Assembly (NCBI GenBank): GCA_964415865.1
Contig: CAYQBY010000003.1
Coordinates: 3,158-67,157 of the forward strand
Length of the DNA stretch: 64,000 nucleotides
Source of the DNA: an uncultured Piscirickettsiaceae bacterium
GTDB lineage: Bacteria > Pseudomonadota > Gammaproteobacteria > GCF-002020875
Direction of reading: 5' to 3'
The notes beneath the pieces were generated by a model. The model was not told the origin of the DNA, did no database searches, and saw nothing but the letters and a program-made list of their open reading frames with translations. Both the position numbers and the translations under genes were made by a program. The first letter of the stretch is position 1; the number at the start of each line of letters is the position of its first letter. Below are positions 14,882 through 64,000 of this stretch, piece after piece.

Positions 14882-14888
14882 ATAATAA

Positions 14889-34714: not shown

Positions 34715-34812
34715 AAACAGCTGCTCTTGATCTGAATCAACACCGTCTCAGTCTCGCATTTGGTAAGATTGTCCGCAAGTAACACCTTCATAATAATCTA
34801 CAATTTACCTCT

Positions 34813-37629: not shown

Positions 37630-38214
37630 CTACTTTACCCCGTTGGATATCAGGAACTGACCCAGCTCCTTATCAGTGCGTACGATATGGTCAAGTAGCC
37701 ACTCCTTCAGGAAGTGGTGAATCTCTGTGCTGAGATCCTCCTGGTCATCCAGATTACCTGTATGTTGACCACTAAAGGTCTCTACCTTCTCCACCATATC
37801 CCTATGCTGCTTCATGTGCGCATCTATATCTGGCCAGTTGTTATCTCTCATCAACCCCTCCTCGCGCTCGAAATGGTATTTGGTATATTCGATCAATTCA
37901 TCAATAACACCCTTCACATACCCCTCACCCATATTGTAATGGGAGGCACTAACAACCTGATTCAACAGTCCAACCAGCTTTTGGTGATCATGATCAATTA
38001 ACTCCACCCCAACCTCATACTGGCTATTCCAATCTATATACTCCTTACGCACACTGCGTTCATGAAGATATGGAATCAATGCCAGAATAACCAATATTAC
38101 CCACGGAACAGGATTGGCCAGACCAGCCTCAGATGTAACAAACCCCAGAAAGACGACCACTAACGCAACGATGATCAGTGAGAACAGTGCGAACATCGAG
38201 TAACTTTTTTTCAT
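37630..38214 (-). CDS. Membrane-anchored hemerythrin-like protein
   Basis: N-terminal TM helix; HHE cation-binding pattern (HDHQKLV...H...H..E...H...D). Confidence 0.7.
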   Translation of the reverse strand: MKKSYSMFALFSLIIVALVVVFLGFVTSEAGLANPVPWVILVILALIPYLHERSVRKEYIDWNSQYEVGVELIDHDHQKLVGLLNQVVSASHYNMGEGYVKGVIDELIEYTKYHFEREEGLMRDNNWPDIDAHMKQHRDMVEKVETFSGQHTGNLDDQEDLSTEIHHFLKEWLLDHIVRTDKELGQFLISNGVK

Positions 38215-41095: not shown

Positions 41096-41127
41096 GGATA
41101 GCTCCCCAGGCAATACAAATAAGTTAT

Positions 41128-41162
41128 ATAAAAAAGCCGGCACCTGATATGCAGGTGCCGGC
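41128..41162 (-). terminator. Rho-independent terminator downstream of nirS copy 1
   Basis: GCCGGCACCTG-atatg-CAGGTGCCGGC stem followed by a T-run on the minus strand. Confidence 0.75.
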
Positions 41163-41173
41163 CACTACTCTAC

Positions 41174-42808
41174 TTAGGTTACGTGGTTAGTTCTACTGTA
41201 AACGTTGAACTTACCAGTTGGTGTGGTCAGTCCCTTGATACGAGCCTTCTCTTCAAGAGTGTCCGCATCATAGACTACGATCTCACCAGTTGGGTTACCG
41301 TTATCAGTACGGTTCCAGACAGAGACCCAGGCCTCACTTCCATCCTTGTTAAACTCAATATGGAGTGCCGCCTTACCCTTCTCTTCAGTTACACGGATGG
41401 TCTTAACGATCTCACCGGTCTCCTTGGAGATAACCTGTACAGACTGCTGGATCTCAGGCTCAGGATTCTTGACCTGATCTGCCCATACGTACTTGGAGTT
41501 TGGATGAGTACGGATAAACGCACCTGCTCCATCAGTCTCGATCTCACGTACGATCTTCCACGCCTTGCTTGGTGTACCAGCTGGATCATTACCCCATACG
41601 GTTACCATGCCTGTTCCCAGATGGACTGTAGCACCTACAGGACCATGCTTTGGATCATCCCAGTTTGCACCAGGACCAGGGTGTGGCTTCTTGCCAGTGG
41701 TATCAATCATCGCCTCAAGCTTGCGGGTCTTGGTATCAACTACAACCATCTTGTTGGATGCATTTGCCGCAATCTGGAAGTAACGTCCGGTTGGATCAAA
41801 GAATCCATCATGAAGATATTTAGCTGAATCAATCTTGGTGATTCGAAGATTCTCGATATCAGTGTAGTCAACCTGCCACATCTGTCCCAGCTCCTTGACC
41901 GCAACCAGGAAGGTTGGCTCGTTTGGAGTGGTGTAGACCGCAGCTACGCGTGACTCATTTACATATTCACCATCAACATTTACCCCGCGAGTGGATACTA
42001 CCTTCAGCGGCTCCATGGTCTTGGCATCAGCAATTACGAAGTGTGGTGGCCAGTAGCCTCCACCAATTACATATTTACCGTCACCAGAGATTGCAACATC
42101 ACGTGCATCGTATGCAATCTGGGTCTTGGCAACCAGCATGCTTCCTGGCTGTTGCCATAGATCGATCTTACTCATTACACCATCACGACCCATTGTGTAC
42201 CAGAAACGTCCGGCAACACCATTCTCTGGGTGCTCAGTCTCATGATGCTCAGTGGCCTTGATTACGTGTACTGCATAACCAGTATCAATATGGTCGATAA
42301 TCTCTTTGGTATCACCATCGATTACTGCTGCCTTACCGGCATCACGCTCGATTACTACGAAGAAGTTCTCCCAATTGCGGCCATGCAGTGGCTTGGTTGG
42401 ATAGTCCTTAGGATCGACAAATACCTCTGTGCGCTCCTTCATCATAGCCAGTGACATCTCTGGTGGAACTGGTGGCTCCAACTGGATGTAGGTGGCCATC
42501 ATTGAGATCTCTTCTTTACTGAAAATATCATCAAAGTTGTTCATTCCACCGTCTGTTCCGTAAGTCAGGATCTTCTCTAGACGCTCCTGACCTAGTTCAC
42601 GAGTATTTTTTGGCTCCAGGCTCTTGCCTGTCGCTCCCTTTCTCAGTACACCGTGACAACCTGCACAGCGTTGGAAATAGAGCTTCTTGGAGTGCTCAAA
42701 ATCCGCCTCTGATAGTGATGGCTCAGCACTTACTGTAGTACCGACCCCGCCCATTGCAACACCCACTGCAAGACTTAACGCAGTCAATGATAATTTCTTC
42801 ATATTCAT
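41174..42808 (-). CDS. nirS: Cytochrome cd1 nitrite reductase NirS, copy 1 (Sec signal peptide, soluble periplasmic)
   Basis: Signal peptide MKKLSLTALSLAVGV...; c-heme CAGCH; d1 eight-bladed propeller sequence; start taken at MNMKK. Confidence 0.92.
   Translation of the reverse strand: MNMKKLSLTALSLAVGVAMGGVGTTVSAEPSLSEADFEHSKKLYFQRCAGCHGVLRKGATGKSLEPKNTRELGQERLEKILTYGTDGGMNNFDDIFSKEEISMMATYIQLEPPVPPEMSLAMMKERTEVFVDPKDYPTKPLHGRNWENFFVVIERDAGKAAVIDGDTKEIIDHIDTGYAVHVIKATEHHETEHPENGVAGRFWYTMGRDGVMSKIDLWQQPGSMLVAKTQIAYDARDVAISGDGKYVIGGGYWPPHFVIADAKTMEPLKVVSTRGVNVDGEYVNESRVAAVYTTPNEPTFLVAVKELGQMWQVDYTDIENLRITKIDSAKYLHDGFFDPTGRYFQIAANASNKMVVVDTKTRKLEAMIDTTGKKPHPGPGANWDDPKHGPVGATVHLGTGMVTVWGNDPAGTPSKAWKIVREIETDGAGAFIRTHPNSKYVWADQVKNPEPEIQQSVQVISKETGEIVKTIRVTEEKGKAALHIEFNKDGSEAWVSVWNRTDNGNPTGEIVVYDADTLEEKARIKGLTTPTGKFNVYSRTNHVT
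41178..42721. repeat. Direct repeat unit A (1544 bp, 100% identical to 42890..44433), mature nirS coding region
   Basis: Identical spurious ORFs in the six-frame track at a constant +1712 offset; base-by-base boundaries checked. Confidence 0.95.
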
Positions 42809-42843
42809 AGTTCTCCTAAACAAAACAAAAAACCTCCTCTTGT

Positions 42844-42876
42844 AAAAAACCCCTTTAGCCAATCAGGTTAAAGGGG
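42844..42876 (-). terminator. Rho-independent terminator downstream of nirS copy 2
   Basis: CCCCTTTA-loop-TAAAGGGG stem followed by TTTTTT on the minus strand. Confidence 0.7.
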
Positions 42877-42885
42877 TCTCTTTTA

Positions 42886-44643
42886 TCAAGTTACGTGGTT
42901 AGTTCTACTGTAAACGTTGAACTTACCAGTTGGTGTGGTCAGTCCCTTGATACGAGCCTTCTCTTCAAGAGTGTCCGCATCATAGACTACGATCTCACCA
43001 GTTGGGTTACCGTTATCAGTACGGTTCCAGACAGAGACCCAGGCCTCACTTCCATCCTTGTTAAACTCAATATGGAGTGCCGCCTTACCCTTCTCTTCAG
43101 TTACACGGATGGTCTTAACGATCTCACCGGTCTCCTTGGAGATAACCTGTACAGACTGCTGGATCTCAGGCTCAGGATTCTTGACCTGATCTGCCCATAC
43201 GTACTTGGAGTTTGGATGAGTACGGATAAACGCACCTGCTCCATCAGTCTCGATCTCACGTACGATCTTCCACGCCTTGCTTGGTGTACCAGCTGGATCA
43301 TTACCCCATACGGTTACCATGCCTGTTCCCAGATGGACTGTAGCACCTACAGGACCATGCTTTGGATCATCCCAGTTTGCACCAGGACCAGGGTGTGGCT
43401 TCTTGCCAGTGGTATCAATCATCGCCTCAAGCTTGCGGGTCTTGGTATCAACTACAACCATCTTGTTGGATGCATTTGCCGCAATCTGGAAGTAACGTCC
43501 GGTTGGATCAAAGAATCCATCATGAAGATATTTAGCTGAATCAATCTTGGTGATTCGAAGATTCTCGATATCAGTGTAGTCAACCTGCCACATCTGTCCC
43601 AGCTCCTTGACCGCAACCAGGAAGGTTGGCTCGTTTGGAGTGGTGTAGACCGCAGCTACGCGTGACTCATTTACATATTCACCATCAACATTTACCCCGC
43701 GAGTGGATACTACCTTCAGCGGCTCCATGGTCTTGGCATCAGCAATTACGAAGTGTGGTGGCCAGTAGCCTCCACCAATTACATATTTACCGTCACCAGA
43801 GATTGCAACATCACGTGCATCGTATGCAATCTGGGTCTTGGCAACCAGCATGCTTCCTGGCTGTTGCCATAGATCGATCTTACTCATTACACCATCACGA
43901 CCCATTGTGTACCAGAAACGTCCGGCAACACCATTCTCTGGGTGCTCAGTCTCATGATGCTCAGTGGCCTTGATTACGTGTACTGCATAACCAGTATCAA
44001 TATGGTCGATAATCTCTTTGGTATCACCATCGATTACTGCTGCCTTACCGGCATCACGCTCGATTACTACGAAGAAGTTCTCCCAATTGCGGCCATGCAG
44101 TGGCTTGGTTGGATAGTCCTTAGGATCGACAAATACCTCTGTGCGCTCCTTCATCATAGCCAGTGACATCTCTGGTGGAACTGGTGGCTCCAACTGGATG
44201 TAGGTGGCCATCATTGAGATCTCTTCTTTACTGAAAATATCATCAAAGTTGTTCATTCCACCGTCTGTTCCGTAAGTCAGGATCTTCTCTAGACGCTCCT
44301 GACCTAGTTCACGAGTATTTTTTGGCTCCAGGCTCTTGCCTGTCGCTCCCTTTCTCAGTACACCGTGACAACCTGCACAGCGTTGGAAATAGAGCTTCTT
44401 GGAGTGCTCAAAATCCGCCTCTGATAGTGATGGTCCGGATGCAGCCACCTTGGCTGGTGCTGCTGGGGCTGGAGCAGGGGCTGGTGCCGCTGCTGGAGCT
44501 GGTGCTGGTGCTGGTGCTGGTGCTGCAGTTTTTGATGCACCTGAATCACCAGAGTCACCACACCCTGATAATCCCAGAGTCATGACTATTGCCAGACTCA
44601 GGGTTGCACCCTTCTTGAAACTCCTCTTCTTACCATCGATCAT
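42886..44643 (-). CDS. nirS: Cytochrome cd1 nitrite reductase NirS, copy 2, lipoprotein form with a Pro/Ala-rich linker
   Basis: Lipobox LGLSGC followed by (PA)n linker; then identical to copy 1 from SLSEADFEH to the C-terminus. Confidence 0.9.
   Translation of the reverse strand: MIDGKKRSFKKGATLSLAIVMTLGLSGCGDSGDSGASKTAAPAPAPAPAPAAAPAPAPAPAAPAKVAASGPSLSEADFEHSKKLYFQRCAGCHGVLRKGATGKSLEPKNTRELGQERLEKILTYGTDGGMNNFDDIFSKEEISMMATYIQLEPPVPPEMSLAMMKERTEVFVDPKDYPTKPLHGRNWENFFVVIERDAGKAAVIDGDTKEIIDHIDTGYAVHVIKATEHHETEHPENGVAGRFWYTMGRDGVMSKIDLWQQPGSMLVAKTQIAYDARDVAISGDGKYVIGGGYWPPHFVIADAKTMEPLKVVSTRGVNVDGEYVNESRVAAVYTTPNEPTFLVAVKELGQMWQVDYTDIENLRITKIDSAKYLHDGFFDPTGRYFQIAANASNKMVVVDTKTRKLEAMIDTTGKKPHPGPGANWDDPKHGPVGATVHLGTGMVTVWGNDPAGTPSKAWKIVREIETDGAGAFIRTHPNSKYVWADQVKNPEPEIQQSVQVISKETGEIVKTIRVTEEKGKAALHIEFNKDGSEAWVSVWNRTDNGNPTGEIVVYDADTLEEKARIKGLTTPTGKFNVYSRTNHVT
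42890..44433. repeat. Direct repeat unit B (1544 bp, identical to 41178..42721)
   Basis: As above. Confidence 0.95.
44458..44530. repeat. Simple-sequence repeat (GCTGGT/GCTGGG)n encoding the Pro-Ala linker of lipoprotein NirS
   Basis: gctggggctggagcaggggctggtgccgctgctggagctggtgctggtgctggtgctggtgctg. Confidence 0.85.
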
Positions 44644-52076: not shown

Positions 52077-53159
52077 CTATCTCATCCCGCGACGAGCAGC
52101 ATAGGTTACAAACAGGGTTATAGTAAAGAGTGCCACGGCACCTGCCTGATGAGTTGATGCCAGATGAATTGGAACAACCAACAACAGTGTACTAATTCCA
52201 AGAGCGACCTGTATCAGAACCATTACCATCAGTGCATTCATTCCGCTGCGGGCATATTTTGACAGCTCTACCTGTCGATATCGGAACCAGATAATTATGG
52301 TTGCTATCAATACGGTAATTGCCAACAGGCGGTGGTCAAACTGTACTGTAGTTCTGTTTTCAAAGATGTTGATCCAGAATGGGCTCTCCCTGAATAGTCC
52401 ATCAGGAATATACATTCCATTCATATCGGGGAAGGTATTGTAGCCATACCCTGCCTTGAGACCTGCAACAAACCCACCCGAAAGGATAGTGATTACAATC
52501 AGAAGAGTCAGCCAGCGTGACGTCCTGTATAGGTTGGCCGAGACCTCTCTCTCCATTCTAAATTTGGCATTGGGAAACAGATAGCCAAGCGCGGTCCAGA
52601 ACAGGTATGCATAGATAAGGAATGCTGCTGCAAGATGCGCAGTCAGACGGTACTGGCTGACATGAGGATTATCAATCAACCCGCTCTTGACCATATACCA
52701 ACCCAACACCCCCTGAAGACCACCAAGAATAAACATCAGAATAAACCGTGGAATGGCCGAACGCTGAATCTTGCCAGAGACCCAAAAGTAGATGAATGGC
52801 AACAGGAAGGCAAGGCCGATCAGGCGGCCCAAAACCCTGTGCAGATACTCCAGCAGGAAAATTGATTGAAAACCTGCCAGATCCATCCCCATATTGATTT
52901 TCTGGTACTCGGGGGATTGGCGATAGAGCTCAAAAACACGTTCCCACTCCAGCTGGGTCAGTGGCGGAATCCAACCCATTAGCGGATCCCAATCCACCAT
53001 TGAGAGGCCAGAGCCGGTCAGACGGGTAACTCCACCAAGCACCACCATTGCATAGATAAGAAGACAAACAGCAAGGAGCCAGATCCCGATCTGGCGATTG
53101 TGACTATATTCTGAAAGAGAGCTATACACTGCTATCTGTCTCCACAGCTTTCCTGTCAC
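52077..53159 (-). CDS. ctaA: Heme A synthase, COX15/CtaA type 2 (no Cys pairs)
   Basis: Eight TMs with conserved His (HRVLG, HLAAAF, HRLLAI). Confidence 0.75.
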   Translation of the reverse strand: MTGKLWRQIAVYSSLSEYSHNRQIGIWLLAVCLLIYAMVVLGGVTRLTGSGLSMVDWDPLMGWIPPLTQLEWERVFELYRQSPEYQKINMGMDLAGFQSIFLLEYLHRVLGRLIGLAFLLPFIYFWVSGKIQRSAIPRFILMFILGGLQGVLGWYMVKSGLIDNPHVSQYRLTAHLAAAFLIYAYLFWTALGYLFPNAKFRMEREVSANLYRTSRWLTLLIVITILSGGFVAGLKAGYGYNTFPDMNGMYIPDGLFRESPFWINIFENRTTVQFDHRLLAITVLIATIIIWFRYRQVELSKYARSGMNALMVMVLIQVALGISTLLLVVPIHLASTHQAGAVALFTITLFVTYAARRGMR

Positions 53160-54027
53160 CGGTCAGGGAAAAGTAGATCAGCAGAGCCGTTATCAGCAGT
53201 TGGGAGAATGTAGAGTGGAGCGATGTAGCAACCAGTGGAAGTTGCCCCTCAACCATGAAGCCACCAAGCTTGGTCTGTACAAACAGCAACAACAGCAAGA
53301 TCAATAGAAAGTTTCTCTGACCAGCATCCCCTCTCCTGAAGGCACGAAGCAGCATTACAGAAAAGTAGAGCAGTGCAACAAGAGCTGAGAACCTGTGCAT
53401 CATATGCATCTGTATTAGAGGGTTTTCTGACCACCAATATCCATTGCAGTCAGGCAGTGTTGTACAGGCCATCCCTGCAAATTTGGCAGAAACCATCCCA
53501 CCCTGCATTAACATGGTAAGCAGCAGCATGGCACCGGCTAGCATTACCGCCCTCTGTAGTGAAAACCGCTGCTCCCAACCAAAAACTCTAGCCATAAGCA
53601 GGGCAGATGCACCTAACAGAACCATTCCACCCAGAAGATTACCCATAACAACCCACAACTCAAGTGATCCACCTGCTGCTATCCCAAGTCCGGCTAGCCA
53701 CAATACGGCACCACCCATGACCACAGCGTACTGCCTTAATCTTGCAGCACCCTCTCCAGCACGAATCAGTACAATATTTACCAACAATACAAGTATGGCA
53801 ATAACACCAGCCAGGGTACGGTGGGCAATGGTTGCAAAGTGATATTCACCCTCAGCAACACCGGCAAAACCCTTGGCCTCACCAGTGACTCCAACCTCAC
53901 CATAACAGAGTGGCCGTTCCACACACTCCAGTCCGGACTTTACATGTCTGATATATGAGCTGGTGAAATTAAGGGTAACCACCAGCAGAACAGTTATTAC
54001 AACCAGATAGCGGATATTAAGCCCCAT
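53122..54027 (-). CDS. ctaA: Heme A synthase-like protein, CtaA type 1 (Cys pairs in loops)
   Basis: Eight TMs; CVERPLC and CTTLPDC loop cysteine pairs; His in TM2 and TM6. Confidence 0.65.
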   Translation of the reverse strand: MGLNIRYLVVITVLLVVTLNFTSSYIRHVKSGLECVERPLCYGEVGVTGEAKGFAGVAEGEYHFATIAHRTLAGVIAILVLLVNIVLIRAGEGAARLRQYAVVMGGAVLWLAGLGIAAGGSLELWVVMGNLLGGMVLLGASALLMARVFGWEQRFSLQRAVMLAGAMLLLTMLMQGGMVSAKFAGMACTTLPDCNGYWWSENPLIQMHMMHRFSALVALLYFSVMLLRAFRRGDAGQRNFLLILLLLLFVQTKLGGFMVEGQLPLVATSLHSTFSQLLITALLIYFSLTGDRKAVETDSSV

Positions 54028-55125: not shown

Positions 55126-56481
55126 ATGAACAGACAACCAGATTACCAGCCCTCTGTCCCTGACTCCGTCCAGCCATTGATCCGAGGGTGGATCTATCTG
55201 GCACTGGCCTCACTCATCGTCCCCGGGCTGACAGCGGTACTTCTTGTATTGCTACGCACATTGGTAGTTGATTCGGCATCATGGACCGATCTGTTCCGTA
55301 CTGCACTGGTGGTACATGTCGACCTTTCTGTATTTGTCTGGTTTCTTGCTATCGGAGGGGCGCTGTGGACCAGCATGCTATCATCACCAACCACGGCTGC
55401 CAAATGGTCTCTCCGCCTGGCCGTAAGCGGAACAGTCATCATATCTGTTGCTCCACTACTGGGTGCAACCACACCGGTAATGAACAACTATATTCCAGTG
55501 CTTGACCATCCAATTTTTCATCTTGGTCTGGGTCTCTTTGCAGTTGGGATACTTCTTCTAGCTCCCTCCATCATGGGTCGATCACCCAGGCTCTTACCAG
55601 AGACTGGAGAGGAGCTAATACAACTTGGTGGATGGCTTGCGATGTTGGCAACAGTTATTGCAGCAATGGCCTTTATTCACACCTGGTTATCCATTCCTGT
55701 TGACCCGGAGAGGGCTGCTGTTACCTATTACGAGATTCTGTTCTGGTCTGATGGACATATTCTACAATTCACCTATACGACTCTACTGGTTGTTGCTTGG
55801 TTGGCATTGGGTTCTGCACTGAGGATCAACCCTGCCCCATCTCCAGGTATGACTGCAATCATGCTGGTTATCGGATTTATACCTCTAATTATTGTCCCCT
55901 GGATTCTCTCATCCTTTGGTGTCCTCTCGGCAGAATACAGGGGATGGTTTACCTGGCTAATGCGCTATGGCAACAGCCTGGCACCAGTACTTGTCTCTGT
56001 TGTGATTCTGGCAGGAGTGCTTCGCTCCAGGGCAATGACTGATGAACAGCGCCCTCTGCACGCATCACTGGTTGCATCATTTATCCTGTTTGCGGCTGGA
56101 GGTGTCATTGGCTTCATGATCTCCGGGATCAACACCATTATTCCTGCTCATTACCATGGCTCTATTGTCGGAGTCACATTAGCATTTATGGGGCTGGTCT
56201 ATATCTTGTTACCAAGGGTTGGTTTTGTGGCCCCAACCGGGCGCATGGCTATACTGCAGCCCTATGTGTATGCAGTGGGTCAGCTCATGCATGTTGCAGG
56301 ACTCGCAATGTCTGGTGGTCACGGAGCAGCTCGTAAGAGTGTCGGGGGCTCACTTGGAGTAGATGATTTTTATGGCACATTGAGTGTCGGCTTCACCCGT
56401 ATTGGCGGCCTGCTGGCCGTAGTTGGCGGGATACTATTTCTGGTGGTCTGCTGGAAATCAATTCGTGCCAAAAAAGGTTAG
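55126..56481 (+). CDS. 12-TM membrane protein, NnrS-like (putative heme/copper NO-stress protein)
   Basis: About 12 hydrophobic helices with scattered conserved His; denitrification context. Confidence 0.35.
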   Translation: MNRQPDYQPSVPDSVQPLIRGWIYLALASLIVPGLTAVLLVLLRTLVVDSASWTDLFRTALVVHVDLSVFVWFLAIGGALWTSMLSSPTTAAKWSLRLAVSGTVIISVAPLLGATTPVMNNYIPVLDHPIFHLGLGLFAVGILLLAPSIMGRSPRLLPETGEELIQLGGWLAMLATVIAAMAFIHTWLSIPVDPERAAVTYYEILFWSDGHILQFTYTTLLVVAWLALGSALRINPAPSPGMTAIMLVIGFIPLIIVPWILSSFGVLSAEYRGWFTWLMRYGNSLAPVLVSVVILAGVLRSRAMTDEQRPLHASLVASFILFAAGGVIGFMISGINTIIPAHYHGSIVGVTLAFMGLVYILLPRVGFVAPTGRMAILQPYVYAVGQLMHVAGLAMSGGHGAARKSVGGSLGVDDFYGTLSVGFTRIGGLLAVVGGILFLVVCWKSIRAKKG

Positions 56482-57167: not shown

Positions 57168-57671
57168 TTATTCAAAGATAAATTCTCCATGTTTTGCATC
57201 AAAATCCACCACTATGATCTCTGCTGGGGCCATATCAACATCTTCCTCAGCAATATAATCAAATTCATCACTATCTACGCTATCACGCATTTTCACCCCA
57301 AGCCTGTGTTTGCCTGATGGCACTGTTATCTTCTGATAAGTATATCCTGCAGCATCATTGTGCAGCCCTGAAGGTATGATGGTCTCAGAGTGTACTACCT
57401 CTCCATCAAGCTCCAACTCAAGAAAAATGGGGGAACGCTCTCTTGGACATACAACAGGCATCCGCATATTTGGTGGTAGCTTTGCTAACTGTTCCGGAGT
57501 CTGTTTCACACACTCCCCAGCTGGTTCACTGGTATGTGCCAGACTAATCTTGATCAATGCTGTATCCGCCCCCATGTGATTATATGATGGTGATGTAGAG
57601 AGGTAACCAACTACCGCCATGAACAGTCCATAAAGCACAACCTGACCGATTATCTGCATAACCTTGCTCAC
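57168..57671 (-). CDS. Membrane-anchored periplasmic protein, unknown
   Basis: N-terminal TM; 167 aa; ATGA-type overlap with the upstream gene. Confidence 0.4.
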   Translation of the reverse strand: MSKVMQIIGQVVLYGLFMAVVGYLSTSPSYNHMGADTALIKISLAHTSEPAGECVKQTPEQLAKLPPNMRMPVVCPRERSPIFLELELDGEVVHSETIIPSGLHNDAAGYTYQKITVPSGKHRLGVKMRDSVDSDEFDYIAEEDVDMAPAEIIVVDFDAKHGEFIFE

Positions 57672-59236
57672 TGTTTTACCTCCTCTTCACTACCCTCTCC
57701 ACTATCCTGCTCACCGCTATAACCATGCAGGTAGTCACGGAACTCTTTGATCTGTGAATCAAGTTGTTTTTGGTCGGGACTCTCGGCACGGAAAATACGG
57801 ATACGGTTACGATCAACTCGTGAGCGCAGTGCAGGCTTTCTGTCCTTATGAATCCTCTCATCAAGCCAGTGATTTCCAAGACGATAGTGGCAATTATTCT
57901 CCAGACAACCGGTAATAAATACACCGTCTGCATTACCACGTCTGAATGCATAATCAATGAATGAGGCTGGCAACATTCCTGTGCACGGAAGGGTAACTAC
58001 TGCTGTATCACCACCCTTGTATCTATCCAATTCAGCTGCGTGATCACAACCAAAGATGATAATACGGGTCTCACCATCCAATGCTCCAAGTTTGGTGTTG
58101 CACTCCTCACGCAACATATTGACTGACTCATGAGGCATATCAATACCGGTCACCAGTGGCTCCATCTTTCTGAATGGAGTTGATGATGGGCAGGAACCAG
58201 CACAGATTCCACAACTGGCACAGTAGCTATCATGTACTACTGCAACCTCATCATATGGGAGATCATCCGTTCTTGGCTCCATAGTGATTGCGCTATATGG
58301 GCAATCATCAACGCACTGACCACAACCGTTACACTCCTCCGGGAAGATCACGGCAACCGGCGGCTGCTTCTTCTTGGGGAACCATGGAAGAATAATCAAC
58401 AGGGCACTAACTGCCCAGACCAGAGACCATACCGCCCACATTGGCCAGCTATCAGCTAGTGGATAGATATTAAGATAGAACCAGTCAAGATTTATATCGG
58501 TTGGTACCGTATCAAGATTTGCCTGTTCGTGGCTCACCGCCGGCTTGTATAGTGAGAGTGCAACAAGGGCAACAAGCGTTCCAATAGCCAGACCACGTGG
58601 CGGATTAATAACCGAACGACTTATCCGTAGCAGGTGTATCCAGATCCCGAAGAGCAGGAATATTGGCAGACCGATAACGTGGATGAACGCAATCAGGGTA
58701 AAGAAGCGGTCATTCATATCATCACTGGTCAGGAAGTTCCTGGCCATCGGCTCAGTAAAGATTGGCAGCCAGTCCATCATCTCTGATGATGCGATTGCAA
58801 CATACTGAGCCATGGTATCCCATACCATCCAGTACCCAGAGATACCAAGCAGTGCTGTCATCCACAACAGTGGTACCCCGGAAAACCAGGAGAACCAGCG
58901 AAAGCTGCGGAACCTATCCAACACAAACTCACGGCTCAGGTGAAGGATGATGGTAATGATTGCGGCATCAGATGCATATCGATGGAGGCTGCGCATAATC
59001 CCGGCAGACCACCACAGCTCATTACTCATGTATTCCAGTGATGACCAAGCCCCAAATATACTGGACTCGTAAAGTACAAAAACATATATCCCACTTACCA
59101 GAACGATCCAGAATAGATATACGGTCAGGGCTCCAAGGTGGTAGATGGGGTTCAGCTCTTTGGTGAAAAATATATTGAACCATCCCTCCATCGTAGAGAC
59201 TACGGACTCTCTAACTTTTTGTATGTGATTATTCAT
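57668..59236 (-). CDS. Fusion protein: N-terminal diheme cytochrome b (bc-type Cytb_N-like) plus 2x[4Fe-4S] ferredoxin plus MvhD/FlpD-like Cys-rich domain
   Basis: TM helices with paired His (HLGALT, SLHRY...ILHLS, FIHVIG...IHLL); CNGCGQCVDDCP and CASCGICAGSCP; C-terminal FGCDH...LPCTG...TGCLENNCHY. Confidence 0.65.
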   Translation of the reverse strand: MNNHIQKVRESVVSTMEGWFNIFFTKELNPIYHLGALTVYLFWIVLVSGIYVFVLYESSIFGAWSSLEYMSNELWWSAGIMRSLHRYASDAAIITIILHLSREFVLDRFRSFRWFSWFSGVPLLWMTALLGISGYWMVWDTMAQYVAIASSEMMDWLPIFTEPMARNFLTSDDMNDRFFTLIAFIHVIGLPIFLLFGIWIHLLRISRSVINPPRGLAIGTLVALVALSLYKPAVSHEQANLDTVPTDINLDWFYLNIYPLADSWPMWAVWSLVWAVSALLIILPWFPKKKQPPVAVIFPEECNGCGQCVDDCPYSAITMEPRTDDLPYDEVAVVHDSYCASCGICAGSCPSSTPFRKMEPLVTGIDMPHESVNMLREECNTKLGALDGETRIIIFGCDHAAELDRYKGGDTAVVTLPCTGMLPASFIDYAFRRGNADGVFITGCLENNCHYRLGNHWLDERIHKDRKPALRSRVDRNRIRIFRAESPDQKQLDSQIKEFRDYLHGYSGEQDSGEGSEEEVKQ

Positions 59237-59324
59237 AGGTGAGAACTTTTTACCTTACTAAGTTTTTTATTATATTGCGCGTGACACACTACTGCGTAAA
59301 TGTTTCTAAAATATTTCCATAAAG

Positions 59325-60149
59325 TTATTTGCGTCGATTGATTACAAACTCCTTGATCAGGAAATAGACTCCAATGGAAATAATCATGAAACCAATAAAC
59401 ATACTGACAAAAATCGAGTAATCAAACCTATAACCCCCGCTGGCAGGGTCATATACCGTACAGAAAAAGCGAACACGATCCTCTATGTTTGCAACAATTC
59501 CTCTATTAGTGGGCCGCTTGTAGACCAACTCCTTGAGTGGCTCCATAATCAGTGGCGCATCGTATGATTCCCCATATACCTGGGTATATATTTTGCCTTT
59601 TTGATCAACAACAGTGGCCTGCAGAATATGGTCAAAACCCTTGGTTGTTCTGATATAGGTAAAACCAACATCATTCATAAACCTTTCGACACTGCTGGCA
59701 TCCCCGCTCAAAAAATACCAGTTATCCAGATCAATTCTTCTTAATTTTGCATAATCCTCCATCATCTCTGGACTATCAATCATGGTGTCAAAACCGAGAG
59801 TGATGACATTAAATTTGTCAGAACCGAGTGATTCAGTGGCTATCTCGACCATCTTTTTAAGATGTTCGGTAGTCATCTGACAGATATGGTAACAACTGGT
59901 GTATACCAAATTAACTATTAACGGCTTATTGCGAAAACTTTCCAGGTGAACTGGCATCCCATTAATATCAGTGAATGTATAGTCTGATAGTATGTTACCA
60001 ACTGCCCCTCTGCTCTTTTCAAGTGCTGAGGCATGGTCAAAAACACCCTCCTCTACATCTGCAGAGAACGATATCTGGGAAATACCCAAAAGCAGAAAAA
60101 ACAGAGCTGCCGTAGAGAACCACAGACTGACATCTAGCCATTTATACAC
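59325..60149 (-). CDS. senC: SCO1/SenC copper chaperone with N- and C-terminal membrane segments
   Basis: CYHIC CxxxC motif; conserved FDHIL His. Confidence 0.75.
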   Translation of the reverse strand: MYKWLDVSLWFSTAALFFLLLGISQISFSADVEEGVFDHASALEKSRGAVGNILSDYTFTDINGMPVHLESFRNKPLIVNLVYTSCYHICQMTTEHLKKMVEIATESLGSDKFNVITLGFDTMIDSPEMMEDYAKLRRIDLDNWYFLSGDASSVERFMNDVGFTYIRTTKGFDHILQATVVDQKGKIYTQVYGESYDAPLIMEPLKELVYKRPTNRGIVANIEDRVRFFCTVYDPASGGYRFDYSIFVSMFIGFMIISIGVYFLIKEFVINRRK

Positions 60150-60175
60150 AGAGAGACCCTCTCGGTATTGTCTGA

Positions 60176-61048
60176 TCAGACCAGCTGAATATCAACAACA
60201 GCTGCAATCAACAGCAGTGTCAACTGAACAAGTGATGCGTAGAAACTAGACATTGCCGTATCCCGGTTGGTATCACGGATAAGTACAATGTTTTTATATA
60301 GGAAGTAGAAACCACCAACAGCTGCACCTGCAAAATAGACAAACCCAAGACCCAGATCAAAGAAAAATGGGGTGAATGAGGCACCCACAAGAAGTATTGA
60401 GTTACCAAAGATTGCCCATGCCGCTTTATGATCACCCACAACAACAGGAAGCATCGGAATCCCGCCACGAGCATAATCGTCATGCAGGGTTATCGCCAAA
60501 CTCCAGAAATGTGATGGTGTCCACAAGAAGAGGACAACAGCAAGAATCAGTGGAAATGTATCCAGTCCAGTTGGGTTTACTGTTGCAGCACCAGCCAGTA
60601 CAGCAAAGCTACCGGCAAGTCCGCCAATAACAATATTGAGCCAGGTTCTACGTTTCAACCACCATGTATAGACAAACGCGTAGAAAAAAGCACCAAGAAA
60701 AACATAGAATGCGGCCACACCATTCAGTATATAGGCAGCACCAAGAACAGATACAAACAATAGAGCATAGAGAAACAGTGGCCAACCAATGCCAGCCTTG
60801 ATCTCTCCTGTTACAAATGGACGATTGCGTGTTCTCTCCATTCGACCATCATAATTACGCTCAAGATACTGGTTAAACCCACCTGCACTTGCTGATGAGA
60901 GTAGAACAACCACCAATAACGTTAAGATCTGTGGTAGCGGGACAGATGGCCCTGGAGTAACGGCTAGTCCGACAAGTGCTGTAAGCGCAATTGTGACGCC
61001 AATACGTAACTTAAAGATATTTGCAATTTGCTTAAATCCAAGCACCAC
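60176..61048 (-). CDS. ctaB: Protoheme IX farnesyltransferase (heme O synthase)
   Basis: UbiA-superfamily motif (NQYLERNYDGRMERTRNRP); 8-9 TMs. Confidence 0.8.
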   Translation of the reverse strand: MVLGFKQIANIFKLRIGVTIALTALVGLAVTPGPSVPLPQILTLLVVVLLSSASAGGFNQYLERNYDGRMERTRNRPFVTGEIKAGIGWPLFLYALLFVSVLGAAYILNGVAAFYVFLGAFFYAFVYTWWLKRRTWLNIVIGGLAGSFAVLAGAATVNPTGLDTFPLILAVVLFLWTPSHFWSLAITLHDDYARGGIPMLPVVVGDHKAAWAIFGNSILLVGASFTPFFFDLGLGFVYFAGAAVGGFYFLYKNIVLIRDTNRDTAMSSFYASLVQLTLLLIAAVVDIQLV

Positions 61049-61116
61049 GACTCTATTACCTCGTTAATTCAGAACTTGTACTATGCTCCCATTATAACAG
61101 AGCAACCTAATACACA

Positions 61117-61152
61117 ATAAAAAACAGGGGCAGGCTCGAATGCCTGCCCCTG
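61117..61152 (-). terminator. Rho-independent terminator between HCO subunit I and ctaB
   Basis: CAGGGGCAGGC-tcgaat-GCCTGCCCCTG stem followed by a T-run on the minus strand. Confidence 0.7.
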
Positions 61153-61165
61153 AGTTTTGGTTCGC

Positions 61166-62902
61166 TTACGCAAGTCCCCAGACAGATGCCAGGTACTTCC
61201 AGTTAACGAAGTAGTAGAGAACAAAGGTAACAAGGAAGGCCAGTGCCAGAACGAATGTTCCTGGAGCAATGAACCATCCCATACCGATATTTGCATGTCC
61301 CTCATCAGCAGGGGCACGCATCAGCATTGCTGGTCTCTCTGTAGTGTAGCTGTCAAGACCACGGAATCCCATGAACCTAACCTTGCTATCTGTCTTCTTG
61401 CCGAAGAGCAGTGTACCTACTGTCAGCAGACAGAATATGGCTCCACCAAGGACCGCAAGAATCGCAAAGATACCGGCCAGACCCATGATGGTGTAGGCAA
61501 TTGCTGGGTACTCATAGGCATAAGGAGCACCAGTAAATGCCATGTCCCAATGTCTACGGGCAACACCCATGGTACCTGCTCCCATCAGGAAGAGGGAGAC
61601 ACCCGCCATTCCAAGACCAAACAGGTATGGTTGCAGTTTGGCAATTGATGGGAAGATAATCTCACGACCAAACAGGGTTGGTAACAGGAAGTAGGTAACA
61701 GACATGAACGCCATTGTTGTACCCAGTACCACCGTTGCGTGGAAGTGACCTGGTACGTAGATGGTATTATGGATGATCAGGTTGATCTGCTCCACACCCA
61801 TGACCACACCTGAGATACCACCCAGGAATCCAAAACCGATCAAGGAGATAAACATTGAGGAGAATACAGGATTACCCCAAGGTGCTTTCTTCAGCCACTG
61901 GAAGAGGCCACGATTGAGCCCTTTCATACGCTGAGCAACCTCAATTGATCCTGGAACAGTCAGTCCGTGAATCATACTAGCCAGTACAGCGAGGTACATT
62001 GCATAACTGGTGTTGAATACCTTCCAGACAGAACTCACACCTGGGTCAACCAAAATATGGTGAGCAGAAGCGAGCTGCAGGAAGAGGATGTACAACAGGA
62101 ATGCTGAACGACTGATCTTCTCGGACATTGGTTTTGCACCGAACAGTAGTGCTGCAACCATGTACCAGATTGAGATATGAGCGGCAACGTTGATCTGCTG
62201 TGAAGAGTGACCCAATGCCCACCAGATAACTCGATACATCAATGGATCAATATTTGAAATCAGCCCAAGAGACCAGAGGAATGTAGGAATCAGGATGATT
62301 GCACCAGATGCGATGGTAAAGACAGCAATAATTGCTGCAACAGTTGCACCAAATACAACCAGAGGAACTGATCCCTCATAAGTCTTCTCCTCTTTGGCAA
62401 TTACAAGCGTACCGAAGAAGATGAAACAACCGATCAGAGCACCAACAGCAAACAGAATAAGTCCCAGATAGAACAGAGGATCTGCTGGCATTGGTACATA
62501 AGAGGTCATCATCACGCTGGAGTTACCCATAATGATGGCGTAGTTAGTAATCAACGCACCAACAAGCATCAATCCAAACTGAACCCATCCCCACATTGGG
62601 GTTGCCAATCTCGAACGCAGTAGCGTCGATGAGGCAAAGTAGAGTACTGCCATCTCAAAGAAGATGATATAGATAATCAACATATCGATACCGTGACCAG
62701 TCAGTGCCTGATAGAACTGACCGGCTGGAAGTATATGCAATGTTGGCATACGTGTAGCCGTTACCAGCGCAGCAAGGATTCCACCAATAAGGAGGAATAC
62801 CGTAGCAGCAATAGCATTGGCCTTCATTAGATTTTCCGCATTCTTGTGAAAGACAAGCCCTGTGCCTGTCTCTGTACGGAATAGTGGTTTTGCAAAACTC
62901 AT
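61166..62902 (-). CDS. Heme-copper oxidoreductase subunit I lacking the cross-linked active-site Tyr (sNOR/B-family-like, putative NO reductase)
   Basis: Twelve-plus TMs; heme ligands (H in TM2, GHFHATVV in TM10); CuB/FeB His (WWALGH, AHHIL); GHSSQQ where A/B-type oxidases have GHPEVY. Confidence 0.75.
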   Translation of the reverse strand: MSFAKPLFRTETGTGLVFHKNAENLMKANAIAATVFLLIGGILAALVTATRMPTLHILPAGQFYQALTGHGIDMLIIYIIFFEMAVLYFASSTLLRSRLATPMWGWVQFGLMLVGALITNYAIIMGNSSVMMTSYVPMPADPLFYLGLILFAVGALIGCFIFFGTLVIAKEEKTYEGSVPLVVFGATVAAIIAVFTIASGAIILIPTFLWSLGLISNIDPLMYRVIWWALGHSSQQINVAAHISIWYMVAALLFGAKPMSEKISRSAFLLYILFLQLASAHHILVDPGVSSVWKVFNTSYAMYLAVLASMIHGLTVPGSIEVAQRMKGLNRGLFQWLKKAPWGNPVFSSMFISLIGFGFLGGISGVVMGVEQINLIIHNTIYVPGHFHATVVLGTTMAFMSVTYFLLPTLFGREIIFPSIAKLQPYLFGLGMAGVSLFLMGAGTMGVARRHWDMAFTGAPYAYEYPAIAYTIMGLAGIFAILAVLGGAIFCLLTVGTLLFGKKTDSKVRFMGFRGLDSYTTERPAMLMRAPADEGHANIGMGWFIAPGTFVLALAFLVTFVLYYFVNWKYLASVWGLA

Positions 62903-62915
62903 TATTAATTACCCC

Positions 62916-63458
62916 TTATTCTGTAACGTAAATTTTACTGGTCATGAAATGATGACCTACACCACAATACTCATTACAGATTATTGTGAACTCACCAGTC
63001 TGGTTTGGCGTAATTGTTATTACTGACTCATAACCTGGCAAAACCTGGGTATTTACATTGATTGGCTGTACAGAGAAGCCGTGCTGCCAGTCAATTGAGG
63101 AGAGATGCAGACGATATGACTCGTCCTTCTTTAGCTCCAGTGCTGGGTACCACTGCCACTTCTTGCCAAGCATGTAGACATCACTGCCAACAGGTGGTTT
63201 AACAACCGGAACATTCCACGCGGTCTCTCTACGCACTTCGTGTGCTGCAACCATGGCATCAACCTTTGCCTGAAACTTCTCAGGGGTAGTTTTATATGCC
63301 TCATTGGAAAGATTCTGGTTTCCATAGATGTGCCAGATAGGCATCATCGCAAACATAAACAGACACCAGATAAGTGCGATCGCAACCCATAGTCCCTCGG
63401 ACCGATCTACCGGAGTTTTCCACCAGATGGTTTCTGTTGGGGGTAGTATTGAACTCAT
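62916..63458 (-). CDS. Heme-copper oxidoreductase subunit II with a complete CuA site (ba3-like, single TM)
   Basis: H...CNEYCGVGHHFM CuA motif; 180 aa. Confidence 0.8.
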   Translation of the reverse strand: MSSILPPTETIWWKTPVDRSEGLWVAIALIWCLFMFAMMPIWHIYGNQNLSNEAYKTTPEKFQAKVDAMVAAHEVRRETAWNVPVVKPPVGSDVYMLGKKWQWYPALELKKDESYRLHLSSIDWQHGFSVQPINVNTQVLPGYESVITITPNQTGEFTIICNEYCGVGHHFMTSKIYVTE

Positions 63459-63761
63459 AACAGACTCTCCTCCTGAATTATGGGGCTATGGGGATAGAGA
63501 TGATCTCCATGATTCCCCACAAGGTATAGAAAACGGTTGGTACGGCTATTCCAAGAAATAGCAGCAAGAATGGGTTATCGAGCAAGCGCTGCATTGCAGG
63601 TACTCTCTCTTCTTCTTTAGTCTGTTCTTCCACTAGTTGACTCCCTCTGATGTTATAAAAAATATTAACTGATTAATTTGATCTATCTGCCCGCCACAAA
63701 GCGGATACAGATATACCGCAGGTTAGGCCAGCAATTTATACTCTTTAACCAACTATAGCTA

Positions 63762-63775
63762 CGTGACCTAGATCA
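63762..63775. promoter_or_regulatory. Candidate Dnr/FNR-like box gTGAC-CTAG-ATCAA, ~300 bp upstream of the HCO operon
   Basis: TGA-N6-TCA core with the same CTAG centre as the nirS2 box. Confidence 0.35.
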
Positions 63776-64000
63776 AATTGAAATAAAACTGAAACAATTC
63801 AAGAGCCATAATTGCTGATTGATTGTAACAATAGTTTTAAGTTGTGGGAGTTTAAATGTCCGTTGATCCTAATTATTTATATCAACTAGCAGACATTAAA
63901 TTGCGTTAAATCAGCTAATCCACAAATCTGCCTCTACTCCCCCATGAAGACGGTTTTTCAACGCAACTTTCCAACCATTGACATCAGCAAGATTTTTTAC

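What the first reader, a model, noticed from the sequence alone, without database searches (positions are those of the whole stretch)
57668..63458. Atypical heme-copper (NOR/oxidase-like) operon: CuA subunit II, Tyr-less subunit I, heme O synthase, SenC and a cytochrome b-ferredoxin-MvhD fusion
The catalytic subunit I has all six canonical His but carries GHSSQQ where O2-reducing A/B-family enzymes have GHPEVY (the His-Tyr cross-link). Loss of the Tyr together with a CuA-bearing small subunit II matches the genomically predicted CuA-type NO reductase families (sNOR-like) rather than cNOR/qNOR. No norC/norB/norQ/norD is present in this otherwise complete denitrification island, so this enzyme is the best NO-reductase candidate. 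It is co-encoded with ctaB (heme O), senC and an unusual cyt b/Fe-S protein, and sits next to two heme A synthases. That suggests heme O or A cofactors, which would be unusual for an NOR.
Basis: partly seen in the sequence, partly recalled or inferred. Interest (0 to 1): 0.85.

Follow-up and report, generated by a model that had tools for sequence, protein, structure and literature searches.

The report
eNOR-type nitric oxide reductase operon
This is the gene cluster for an eNOR-family nitric oxide reductase, a known copper-A-containing, tyrosine-less relative of oxygen-reducing oxidases, sitting in a denitrification island; it is a new member of a known family (not sNOR as first proposed), and its conserved helper genes are still poorly understood.

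Summary
On the minus strand at 57668-63458 lie a CuA subunit II, an HCO subunit I with all six His ligands and GHSSQQ in place of the His-Tyr motif, heme O synthase, SCO1/SenC and a cytochrome b6-2x[4Fe-4S]-MvhD fusion.

The family assignment is wrong. The residue at the cross-link Tyr position is Gln, the published eNOR diagnostic (sNOR and bNOR have Asn). The K-channel Ser309, reported missing in sNOR, is conserved. eNOR is already characterised: the Rhodothermus marinus enzyme reduces NO, does not reduce O2, and carries heme A(s). So the adjacent ctaB and ctaA genes are expected, not unusual.

No norB or norC occurs in this window, which holds nar, two nirS, the heme d1 genes and nosZ, so eNOR is the likely NO reductase here.

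Beyond the finding:
- The conserved module is larger: a small one-helix subunit upstream, a membrane-anchored beta-sandwich protein, and a second HCO-like protein that lacks two of the three CuB histidines. These are syntenic in most of 80 related proteobacterial loci.
- A positionally conserved FNR/Dnr box lies upstream in 53 of 74 loci.

Verdict: new member of a known kind, moderate-to-low interest. The accessory module is the only under-explored part.

The parts
63763..63776 (-). FNR/Dnr-type box TTGATCTAGGTCAC, about 130 nt upstream of the small ORF and 318 nt upstream of subunit II
   Evidence: A TTGAY-N4-RTCAM box lies at an equivalent position (mostly about 300-345 nt upstream of subunit II) in 53 of 74 related loci. 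Background is 0.13 per 540 nt. Sequence read.
63478..63633 (-). Small single-TM protein: 51 aa from the GTG, or 38 aa from the ATG at 63594. Candidate third eNOR subunit, in the position of ba3 subunit IIa
   Evidence: The motif MQ..LDNPFLLLF.G..PTV.Y..WG.MEI..IP.A is conserved immediately upstream of subunit II in nearly all loci, including the Defluviimonas plasmid and, weakly, Thermus. It is a called 56-aa gene in L085. The subunit role is inferred.
62916..63458 (-). eNOR subunit II: one TM helix plus a CuA cupredoxin domain
   Evidence: Pfam COX2. The CuA motif C-x-E-x-C-G-x-x-H-x-x-M is conserved, as is E21 before the TM helix, which I take (by position) to be the counterpart of ba3 subunit II Glu15 at the K-channel entrance.
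61166..62902 (-). eNOR subunit I (catalytic): six His ligands and Gln236 in place of the cross-link Tyr
   Evidence: The Gln diagnostic comes from PMC8756737 Table A4.
61125..61152 (-). Terminator-like hairpin (11-bp stem, 9 GC, T-run) between subunit I and ctaB. Possible attenuation point between the structural and accessory genes
   Evidence: This is a pattern match only; function is not shown.
60176..61048 (-). Heme O synthase (CtaB/CyoE paralog)
   Evidence: NCBIfam TIGR01473, 249 bits against a cut-off of 210. Follows subunit I in 67 of 76 loci.
59325..60149 (-). SCO1/SenC copper chaperone with a C-terminal TM extension
   Evidence: Pfam SCO1-SenC. The CxxxC motif and the downstream His are conserved. 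Present in 73 of 74 loci.
57668..59236 (-). Fusion of a cytochrome b6-like di-heme domain (6 TM helices by my reading), 2x[4Fe-4S] and an MvhD-like [2Fe-2S] domain
   Evidence: Pfam and NCBIfam. PDB piecewise matches: b6 at 25-213, HdrA ferredoxin domain at 289-353, MvhD at 409-500. Four His, two CxxCxxCxxxCP motifs and four MvhD Cys are conserved. Present in 62 of 65 loci.
57168..57671 (-). Conserved 167-aa membrane-anchored beta-sandwich protein of unknown function. Its start overlaps the stop of the fusion gene by 4 nt
55126..56481 (+). Second, divergent HCO subunit-I-like protein (c451). It keeps the heme ligands but lacks the helix VII His pair of the CuB/FeB site
   Evidence: Pfam COX1 at 28.7 bits, below the cut-off. 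Invariant H64, G210-H211, Q214, H342-Y-H344, R403-K404. AF2 pTM 0.89, best fold match ba3 subunit I. Lies downstream of the cluster in 45 of 52 loci. It is inverted in the window and in L001 and L003.
53122..54027 (-). Divergent CtaA/COX15-like protein (301 aa)
   Evidence: Pfam COX15-CtaA, 66.5 bits.
52077..53159 (-). Heme A synthase CtaA (360 aa). Overlaps the 301-aa CtaA-like gene by 38 nt
   Evidence: Pfam COX15-CtaA, 366 bits. A homolog lies divergently upstream of subunit II in 33 of 68 loci.

Best explanation
The region encodes an eNOR-family nitric oxide reductase together with its cofactor-maturation and accessory genes. It most likely carries out the NO to N2O step of the nar-nirS-nosZ denitrification pathway encoded in the same window.

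Proposed mechanism:
- Periplasmic electron carriers (several cytochromes c are encoded in the window) reduce CuA in subunit II.
- Electrons pass to the low-spin heme (His70/His388) and then to the high-spin heme (His386) and its metal-B site (His232, His281, His282). There, two NO are reduced to N2O.
- Gln236 occupies the place of the cross-link Tyr that O2 reductases need for four-electron chemistry, so O2 reduction is not expected.
- Protons probably enter from the cytoplasm through a conserved K-channel analogue (subunit II Glu21; subunit I Thr315, His312, Ser309, Ser260, Tyr247). That would make the step electrogenic.
- The dedicated CtaB and the two CtaA proteins supply heme O and then heme A(s). 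SenC loads copper into CuA.
- The operon is probably switched on by an FNR/Dnr-type regulator at low O2 or in the presence of NO.

Shown here: gene content, ligand and motif conservation, clade separation, synteny, and conservation of the FNR-type box.
Shown elsewhere for the family: NO reductase activity, absence of O2 reductase activity, and heme A(s) (R. marinus).
Inferred: activity of this particular enzyme, proton uptake, identity of the B-site metal, and the roles of the small subunit, the cyt b-FeS-MvhD fusion, the beta-sandwich protein and the second HCO-like protein.
For: - Gln at the cross-link Tyr position, invariant in 81 homologs. This is the eNOR diagnostic (PMC8756737 Table A4).
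- K-channel residues are conserved, including Ser309 (80 of 81), a trait reported for eNOR, bNOR and B1 oxidases but missing in sNOR (PMC11214002).
- The CuA motif in subunit II is conserved.
- The Gln-type clade has 99/100 NJ bootstrap support, includes Thermus and haloarchaeal members, and lies outside the canonical B-family.
- The taxon spread matches the published eNOR distribution: a Paramagnetospirillum ortholog at 67% identity (the M. magnetotacticum 'cytochrome a1-like' protein is an eNOR), a haloarchaeon, and a Thermus homolog with a His/Lys heme ligand pair, as noted for some eNORs.
- ctaB, senC and ctaA linkage matches published eNOR operons.
- R. marinus eNOR reduces NO (kcat 0.68 per s) and does not reduce O2.
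- F. straubiae eNOR operon proteins were detected under denitrifying conditions.
- Window context: nar, two nirS, heme d1 genes and nosZ, with no norB or norC.
- An FNR/Dnr box lies upstream in 53 of 74 loci.
Against: - No verified eNOR sequence (R. marinus, M. magnetotacticum) could be fetched, so membership rests on published diagnostic residues and taxon overlap, not on a joint tree with the type enzyme.
- No activity data exist for this proteobacterial subclade.
- The window's own FNR-type box deviates from the consensus at its last base (GTCAC, not GTCAA).
- The rest of the genome is unseen and could encode cNOR or qNOR, which would make eNOR accessory.
- Heme A synthesis is described as O2-dependent, which sits awkwardly with strictly anoxic denitrification.
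Confidence: 0.85

Rival explanations
1. It is an sNOR (the norSY-senC-orf1 type found in ammonia oxidisers).
For: It has a CuA subunit II, a Tyr-less subunit I outside the canonical B-family, and an adjacent senC gene as in the norSY-senC-orf1 clusters of ammonia oxidisers.
Against: sNOR has Asn at the Tyr position, whereas this enzyme has invariant Gln. sNOR is reported to lack Ser309, which is conserved here. senC adjacency is also 'very common' for eNOR, so it does not discriminate. I could not obtain an ammonia-oxidiser NorS/NorY sequence for direct comparison.
Confidence: 0.03
2. It is a high-affinity, B-family-like terminal O2 reductase that works without the canonical Tyr. A similar role has been argued for the sNOR of Nitrosomonas europaea from transcript data.
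For: The closest solved structure is ba3 oxidase. It has heme A biosynthesis genes, a CuA site and a K-channel analogue, as oxidases do. sNOR transcripts rise under O2 limitation in N. europaea. The nearest sister representatives keep the Tyr.
Against: No Tyr occupies the cross-link position in any of 81 homologs. I saw no compensating helix VII Tyr at the C-family spacing (interpreted from my own knowledge of cbb3). Purified R. marinus eNOR showed no O2 reduction with several donors. The operon lies in a denitrification island behind a conserved FNR/Dnr box.
Confidence: 0.05
3. It is an eNOR-family enzyme, but its main role here is NO detoxification or some other reaction rather than respiratory, energy-conserving NO reduction. 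The respiratory NOR would be encoded elsewhere in the genome.
For: Only 64 kb of the genome is visible. Many organisms carry several NOR types. Published kcat values for eNOR are low. Detoxification roles have been suggested for eNOR in Zetaproteobacteria and F. straubiae.
Against: The operon is embedded directly beside nirS, the d1-heme genes and nirN, and no other NOR lies in the island. The conserved K-channel analogue argues for an electrogenic reaction. The large dedicated accessory module is costly for a side activity.
Confidence: 0.07

Closest known systems
eNOR family of heme-copper oxidoreductases (Hemp & Gennis 2008; Murali et al. 2024, PMC11214002). Characterised member: Rhodothermus marinus DSM 4252 eNOR. 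Earlier isolate: the Magnetospirillum magnetotacticum 'cytochrome a1-like hemoprotein'
   Same: Gln in place of the cross-link Tyr, six His ligands, a CuA subunit II, a K-channel analogue with Ser309, linkage to ctaB, ctaA and sco1, and occurrence in Proteobacteria, Thermus and haloarchaea.
   Different: No activity or heme data exist for this subclade. Position 312 (Thr in ba3) is an invariant His. The cluster carries a fuller accessory set (small TM subunit, cyt b6-FeS-MvhD fusion, beta-sandwich protein, second HCO-like protein) that the eNOR family paper does not describe.
Ferrigenium straubiae KS eNOR operon (preprint 10.64898/2026.01.22.701106)
   Same: The order eNOR II, eNOR I, heme o synthase, sco1, a protein of unknown function (their 'eNOR scaffold protein') and cytochrome b/Fe-S genes. 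The Burkholderiales loci in my set show the same two-cyt-b arrangement.
   Different: The window has one cyt b fusion ending in an MvhD-like domain, not the cyt b-FeS-FAD-NADH protein they describe. They call the cyt b genes 'rather unusual', whereas I find them in 62 of 65 related loci. I could not tell which gene they mean by 'scaffold protein'.
Thermus thermophilus ba3 cytochrome c oxidase (B-family; PDB 1EHK, 1XME)
   Same: Best solved homolog (E 9e-48). Same six His, heme-propionate Arg pair, a single-TM cupredoxin subunit II, and a small one-helix gene upstream (subunit IIa in ba3; my own knowledge).
   Different: ba3 has the His233-Tyr237 cross-link and reduces O2. Here the motif is GHSSQQIN in place of GHPIVYFW. 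The small subunit shows no sequence similarity to ba3 IIa. The family forms a separate clade.
sNOR (norSY-senC-orf1 of ammonia-oxidising bacteria and Nitrococcus)
   Same: A CuA-type, Tyr-less HCO with an adjacent senC, predicted to reduce NO.
   Different: sNOR has Asn, not Gln, at the diagnostic position and lacks Ser309. It is a different family.

Membership tests
eNOR | HCO subunit I with the six conserved His ligands (low-spin heme x2, high-spin heme x1, metal B x3) | tested here: met
   H70, H232, H281, H282, H386 and H388 map onto ba3 H72, H233, H282, H283, H384 and H386. All are invariant in 81 sequences.
eNOR | Gln replaces the cross-link Tyr of helix VI (diagnostic residue, PMC8756737 Table A4) | tested here: met
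   Q236 aligns to ba3 Y237. Gln in 81 of 81.
eNOR | CuA-binding cupredoxin subunit II | tested here: met
   Pfam COX2 and a conserved CNEYCGVGHHFM motif.
eNOR | Conserved K-channel-like residues resembling B-family ba3, including Ser309 | tested here: met
   S309 in 80 of 81. Y247, S260 and T315 are invariant. An invariant His sits at the T312 position. Y244 is replaced by Val/Ile.
eNOR | Falls in one clade with verified eNORs (R. marinus, M. magnetotacticum) | tested here: inconclusive
   Reference sequences were not obtainable. Indirect support: the Gln-type clade has 99/100 bootstrap support and includes Thermus and haloarchaeal members, and a Paramagnetospirillum ortholog is 67% identical.
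eNOR | Heme A(s) in both heme sites | not testable with these tools
   Context only: ctaB in the operon and two ctaA genes nearby.
eNOR | NO reductase activity without O2 reductase activity | not testable with these tools
   Shown for the R. marinus enzyme only.
sNOR | Asn replaces the cross-link Tyr | tested here: not met
   Gln236 at that position. Asn238 lies two residues further on and is also present in the Tyr-bearing sister sequences.
sNOR | K-channel Ser309 missing | tested here: not met
   Ser309 is conserved.
B-family O2 reductase | His-Tyr cross-link Tyr in helix VI (GHPxVY) | tested here: not met
   GHSSQQ. The protein lies in a separate clade from the GHPxVYFW sequences.
gNOR | One active-site His replaced by Asp; subunit II lacks the CuA ligands | tested here: not met
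   All three metal-B His and the CuA ligands are present.
nNOR | Low-spin heme ligated by His and Met | tested here: not met
   Both low-spin ligands are His (H70, H388), invariant.
cNOR / qNOR | Glu at the active site, a heme c subunit NorC or a fused quinol-binding domain, and no CuA | tested here: not met
   Subunit II is a CuA cupredoxin. No solved cNOR or qNOR chain appears among the sequence matches up to E 0.001. Gln, not Glu, sits at the diagnostic position.

The most novel reading that the evidence does not exclude
The four conserved, undescribed partners are dedicated components of a larger eNOR machine. They are the 1-TM peptide, the cyt b6-2x[4Fe-4S]-MvhD fusion, the membrane-anchored beta-sandwich protein and the CuB-less HCO paralog.

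One specific reading is that the cyt b/Fe-S fusion is a membrane-bound ferredoxin-type electron relay for heme O to heme A(s) conversion by CtaA. This would parallel the ferredoxin and ferredoxin reductase needed by yeast Cox15 (my own knowledge). The F. straubiae variant, which carries FAD and NADH domains, would be the fused reductase form. In this reading the CuB-less paralog would act as a heme A(s) holder or assembly scaffold.

An alternative reading is that the fusion links the quinol pool directly to eNOR in a supercomplex.
Probability: 0.25. Interest if true: 0.65.

Novelty: new member of a known kind. Interest (0 to 1): 0.33.

Why it matters
- eNOR genes are routinely mis-annotated; all named relatives here are called 'cbb3-type cytochrome c oxidase subunit I'. 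Organisms carrying only eNOR are therefore scored as lacking an NO reductase. Recognising eNOR here makes this uncultured marine sulfur-oxidiser-like gammaproteobacterium a probable complete denitrifier (NO3- to N2) with a possibly energy-conserving NO step. That bears on N2O budgets in oxygen-deficient waters.
- The family itself is already known, so the window adds a member, not a concept.
- The useful by-product is a sharper definition of the proteobacterial eNOR module: eight or more syntenic genes plus an FNR/Dnr box. This gives concrete targets for working out how eNOR is assembled and fed with electrons, and how heme A is made under near-anoxic conditions.

Tried and rejected
- Supplementary datasets of Murali et al. 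2024 (family alignments and motifs) are not held. The diagnostic residues came instead from Table A4 of PMC8756737.
- I could not obtain a verified sNOR (Nitrosomonas, Nitrosococcus) or eNOR (R. marinus) sequence. The homolog search lists only the best 120 hits, all close relatives, and the single genome-contig scan returned the closest 80 loci. A joint tree with type enzymes was therefore not possible.
- A literature search for 'Nitricoxidireducens' plus 'sNOR' found nothing.
- NCBIfam and Pfam give no family for orf167 and no family above the cut-off for c451.
- A strict FNR-box scan (at most 1 mismatch to TTGAT-N4-ATCAA) found nothing upstream of the operon. The conserved box appeared only with the Dnr-like TTGAY-N4-RTCAM pattern and the cross-locus comparison.
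- The tree is NJ on Kimura distances, not maximum likelihood.
- I considered a compensating Tyr on helix VII and rejected it on spacing. No model coordinates were available to measure distances.
- I considered reading c451 as a pseudogene or degraded copy and rejected it. It is full length, 38-48% identical across phyla, has 63 invariant positions including the heme ligands, and has more than 5000 homologs.

Full report
**1. Observation**

The ORF list shows six consecutive minus-strand genes between 57168 and 63458.
- Subunit II (62916-63458): Pfam COX2.
- Subunit I (61166-62902): Pfam COX1, E 8e-61.
- ctaB (60176-61048): a UbiA-family protein that passes the NCBIfam heme o synthase cut-off.
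- SCO1/SenC (59325-60149).
- A 522-aa fusion (57668-59236) carrying Cytochrome_B, Fer4 and FlpD/MvhD domains.
- A 167-aa ORF (57168-57671) with no family, which lies outside the finding.

Two COX15/CtaA genes lie at 52077-54027. The HMMER alignment to T. thermophilus ba3 oxidase, converted to residue numbers, maps H70, H232, H281, H282, H386 and H388 onto the six ba3 ligands. It places Gln236 opposite the cross-link Tyr237, so GHSSQQ aligns with GHPIVY. Subunit II carries the CuA motif CNEYCGVGHHFM.

**2. Window context**

Family scans of the other large ORFs give:
- clade II nosZ with nosD, Fe-S and ABC accessory genes;
- narGHJI, two narK and narXL-like genes;
- a Crp/Fnr regulator;
- a NirT-fused cytochrome and two tandem nirS genes;
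- nirE, nirF, nirD/L/G/H, nirJ and nirN.

No ORF of about 240 aa or more has a NorB or NorC domain. The only COX1-like proteins are subunit I and a divergent 451-aa protein at 55126-56481. The statement 'no norCB in the island' is therefore true for these 64 kb only.

**3. Which family?**

The literature separates the NOR families related to the B-family by the residue that replaces the cross-link Tyr. It is Asn in sNOR and in CuANOR/bNOR, Gln in eNOR and Asp in gNOR, while cNOR and qNOR have Glu (Table A4 of PMC8756737, after Hemp & Gennis 2008).

- The window protein has Gln, as do all 81 family members extracted from 80 related genome loci.
- Murali et al. add that Ser309 (ba3 numbering) of the K-channel is conserved in B1 oxidases, eNOR and bNOR but missing in sNOR. 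Here Ser309 is conserved in 80 of 81 sequences. Y247, S260 and T315 are invariant, and an invariant His replaces T312.
- gNOR (a His ligand replaced, no CuA) and nNOR (His/Met low-spin heme) are excluded by the invariant His ligands and the CuA motif.
- The taxon spread fits eNOR. There are orthologs in Paramagnetospirillum and Phaeospirillum, and the M. magnetotacticum 'cytochrome a1-like' protein is an eNOR. A haloarchaeal representative carries GHGTQQINL. Thermus megaplasmid copies carry GHGAQQVNL with His-Phe-Lys in helix X, which matches the His/Lys-ligated heme noted for some eNORs.

The enzyme is an eNOR.

**4.

A search of 1.84 billion representatives, followed by alignment of the full-length hits, shows three motif classes:
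- GHxxQQxN, the window type;
- GHxxQYxN, which keeps the Tyr and occurs in Asgard and Thermoproteota archaea;
- GHPxVYFW, the classical B-family.

A further group has Tyr-for-His substitutions that match the published 'J family'. In an NJ tree the Gln-type sequences form a clade in 99 of 100 bootstraps, outside the classical B-family.

The only invariant helix VII Tyr, Y271, lies ten residues before the His pair. From my own knowledge, the cbb3 cross-link Tyr lies about six residues before its HH pair, so I do not see a compensating Tyr. No coordinates were available to measure this. The refutation criterion is not met.

**5. What is known about eNOR**

- Purified R. marinus eNOR reduces NO (kcat 0.68 per s at 25 C) and does not reduce O2.
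- It contains heme A(s) in both heme sites.
- Many eNOR operons contain ctaA.
- A 2026 preprint on Ferrigenium straubiae describes the operon order eNOR II, eNOR I, heme o synthase, sco1 and a protein of unknown function as 'a very common observation', and it notes cyt b/Fe-S genes in the operon.
- eNOR is expressed in iron mats. Murali et al. report expression in Accumulibacter and in Gallionellaceae KS.

**6. The module is larger than the finding**

tblastn of the window proteins against the loci gave these counts among loci with enough downstream sequence:

| Gene | Present / loci assessable |
|---|---|
| ctaB | 67/76 |
| senC | 73/74 |
| cyt b fusion | 62/65 |
| orf167 | 62/65 |
| second HCO-like gene (c451) | 45/52 |

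A CtaA homolog lies divergently upstream of subunit II in 33 of 68 loci. The same architecture occurs on a Defluviimonas plasmid and on a 5-Mb contig.

A small ORF directly upstream of subunit II (63478-63633) encodes a one-helix peptide. Its motif, MQ..LDNPFLLLF.G..PTV.Y..WG.MEI..IP.A, is conserved in nearly all loci. It is probably a third subunit in the position of ba3 subunit IIa. That is an inference.

**7. The accessory proteins**

*Cyt b fusion.*
- By my reading of the sequence it has six TM helices.
- It has four conserved His spaced as in cytochrome b6, two CxxCxxCxxxCP motifs and four conserved Cys in the MvhD-like domain.
- A Lys-rich stretch after the last helix puts the Fe-S part in the cytoplasm (inference from the positive-inside rule).
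- Solved structures match only piecewise: b6, the HdrA ferredoxin domain and MvhD.

*c451.*
- It keeps H64, G210-H211, Q214, H342-Y-H344 and R403-K404, but has no helix VII His pair.
- It models as an HCO subunit I, pTM 0.89, with ba3 as the best match.
- It has more than 5000 homologs, annotated as 'cbb3-type oxidase subunit I' or hypothetical.
- It probably binds two hemes but no B-site metal. Its role is unknown.
- In one Acidimicrobiia contig a homolog has no eNOR genes in the 4.2 kb upstream of it; the contigs there are short.

**8. Regulation and transcription**

- A TTGAY-N4-RTCAM box lies about 300-345 nt upstream of subunit II in 53 of 74 loci, against 0.13 expected per 540 nt.
- The window copy is TTGATCTAGGTCAC at 63763-63776.
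- Perfect FNR boxes elsewhere in the window lie upstream of menA, beside the dnr-like regulator gene, and between nirS and nirE.
- A strong terminator-like hairpin lies between subunit I and ctaB, which suggests higher expression of the structural genes. This is a pattern match only.

**9. Verdict**

This is an eNOR operon and the probable NO reductase of this denitrification island. It is a new member of a known and biochemically characterised family. The sNOR label and the 'unusual heme' argument do not hold. The under-described accessory module (small subunit, cyt b6-FeS-MvhD fusion, beta-sandwich protein, CuB-less HCO paralog) is the only part with real discovery potential. Its function is not resolved here.

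Noticed in passing
window 55126-56481 (+): A second HCO subunit-I-like protein. It keeps both heme ligand sets and the heme-propionate Arg/Lys pair, but only one of the three CuB/FeB His (no helix VII HH). It is syntenic with eNOR in 45 of 52 loci, has more than 5000 homologs, and I found no description of it in the papers I read.
   Followed up: yes
window 63478-63633 (-): A highly conserved one-helix small ORF directly upstream of eNOR subunit II. It is probably a third subunit and is often left unannotated.
   Followed up: yes
window 10896-16259 (+) and 31298-34714 (-); FNR box at 34727-34740: A set of menaquinone biosynthesis genes (menC, menD, menB, menF; menE-like, ubiE/menG, menA-like UbiA) is interleaved with the nos, nar and nir genes of a gammaproteobacterium. 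A perfect FNR box lies just upstream of the menA-like gene. This suggests a low-potential quinone made specifically for anaerobic respiration.
   Followed up: partly
window 39404-44643 (-): Two tandem nirS paralogs (562 and 585 aa) lie upstream of, and are co-oriented with, a 579-aa protein whose N-terminal part is NapC/NirT-like.
   Followed up: no
L082 (Thermus thermophilus plasmid NZ_LR027520.1) 8459-10683: A Gln-type (eNOR-like) subunit II/I pair with Lys replacing the second helix X His. It lacks the proteobacterial accessory genes and sits beside nirS, nirJ, an Rrf2-family regulator and a DUF542 gene.
   Followed up: partly
L005, L008, L011, L015, L017, L022, L025, L030 and other Burkholderiales loci, about 3.5-8 kb downstream of subunit I: These loci have two cyt b fusion genes flanking orf167. 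The first matches the window protein only over its N-terminal part. This is consistent with the cyt b-FeS-FAD-NADH variant described for F. straubiae.
   Followed up: partly
L028 14164-14544; L057 10717-11106: In the Rhodospirillales loci the c451 homolog is followed by a second, short subunit-II-like (cupredoxin) gene. This hints that c451 can have its own partner subunit.
   Followed up: no
proteins P0130, P0133, P0140, P0153: The nearest relatives of the Gln-type clade keep the Tyr (GHxxQYxN). Two of the four carry source names, from a Hodarchaeales (Asgard) and a Thermoproteota archaeon. They are possibly the O2-reductase family reported to cluster with eNOR.
   Followed up: no
proteins P0196, P0210, P0215: HCO homologs with Tyr in place of one helix VII His and one helix X His, matching the published description of the 'J family'. 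One is from a Dehalococcoidia MAG.
   Followed up: no
window 37630-38214 (-); L081 14529-14933; L085 13308-13760: Hemerythrin-family genes recur near eNOR clusters. In L085 a DUF420 gene is also nearby.
   Followed up: no
window 61125-61152: A strong terminator-like hairpin (11-bp stem, 9 GC pairs, T-run on the coding strand) lies between eNOR subunit I and ctaB.
   Followed up: partly
window 52077-54027 (-): Two CtaA/COX15-like genes overlap by 38 nt. One is canonical (366 bits) and one is very divergent (66 bits). The divergent one appears in only a few related loci.
   Followed up: no
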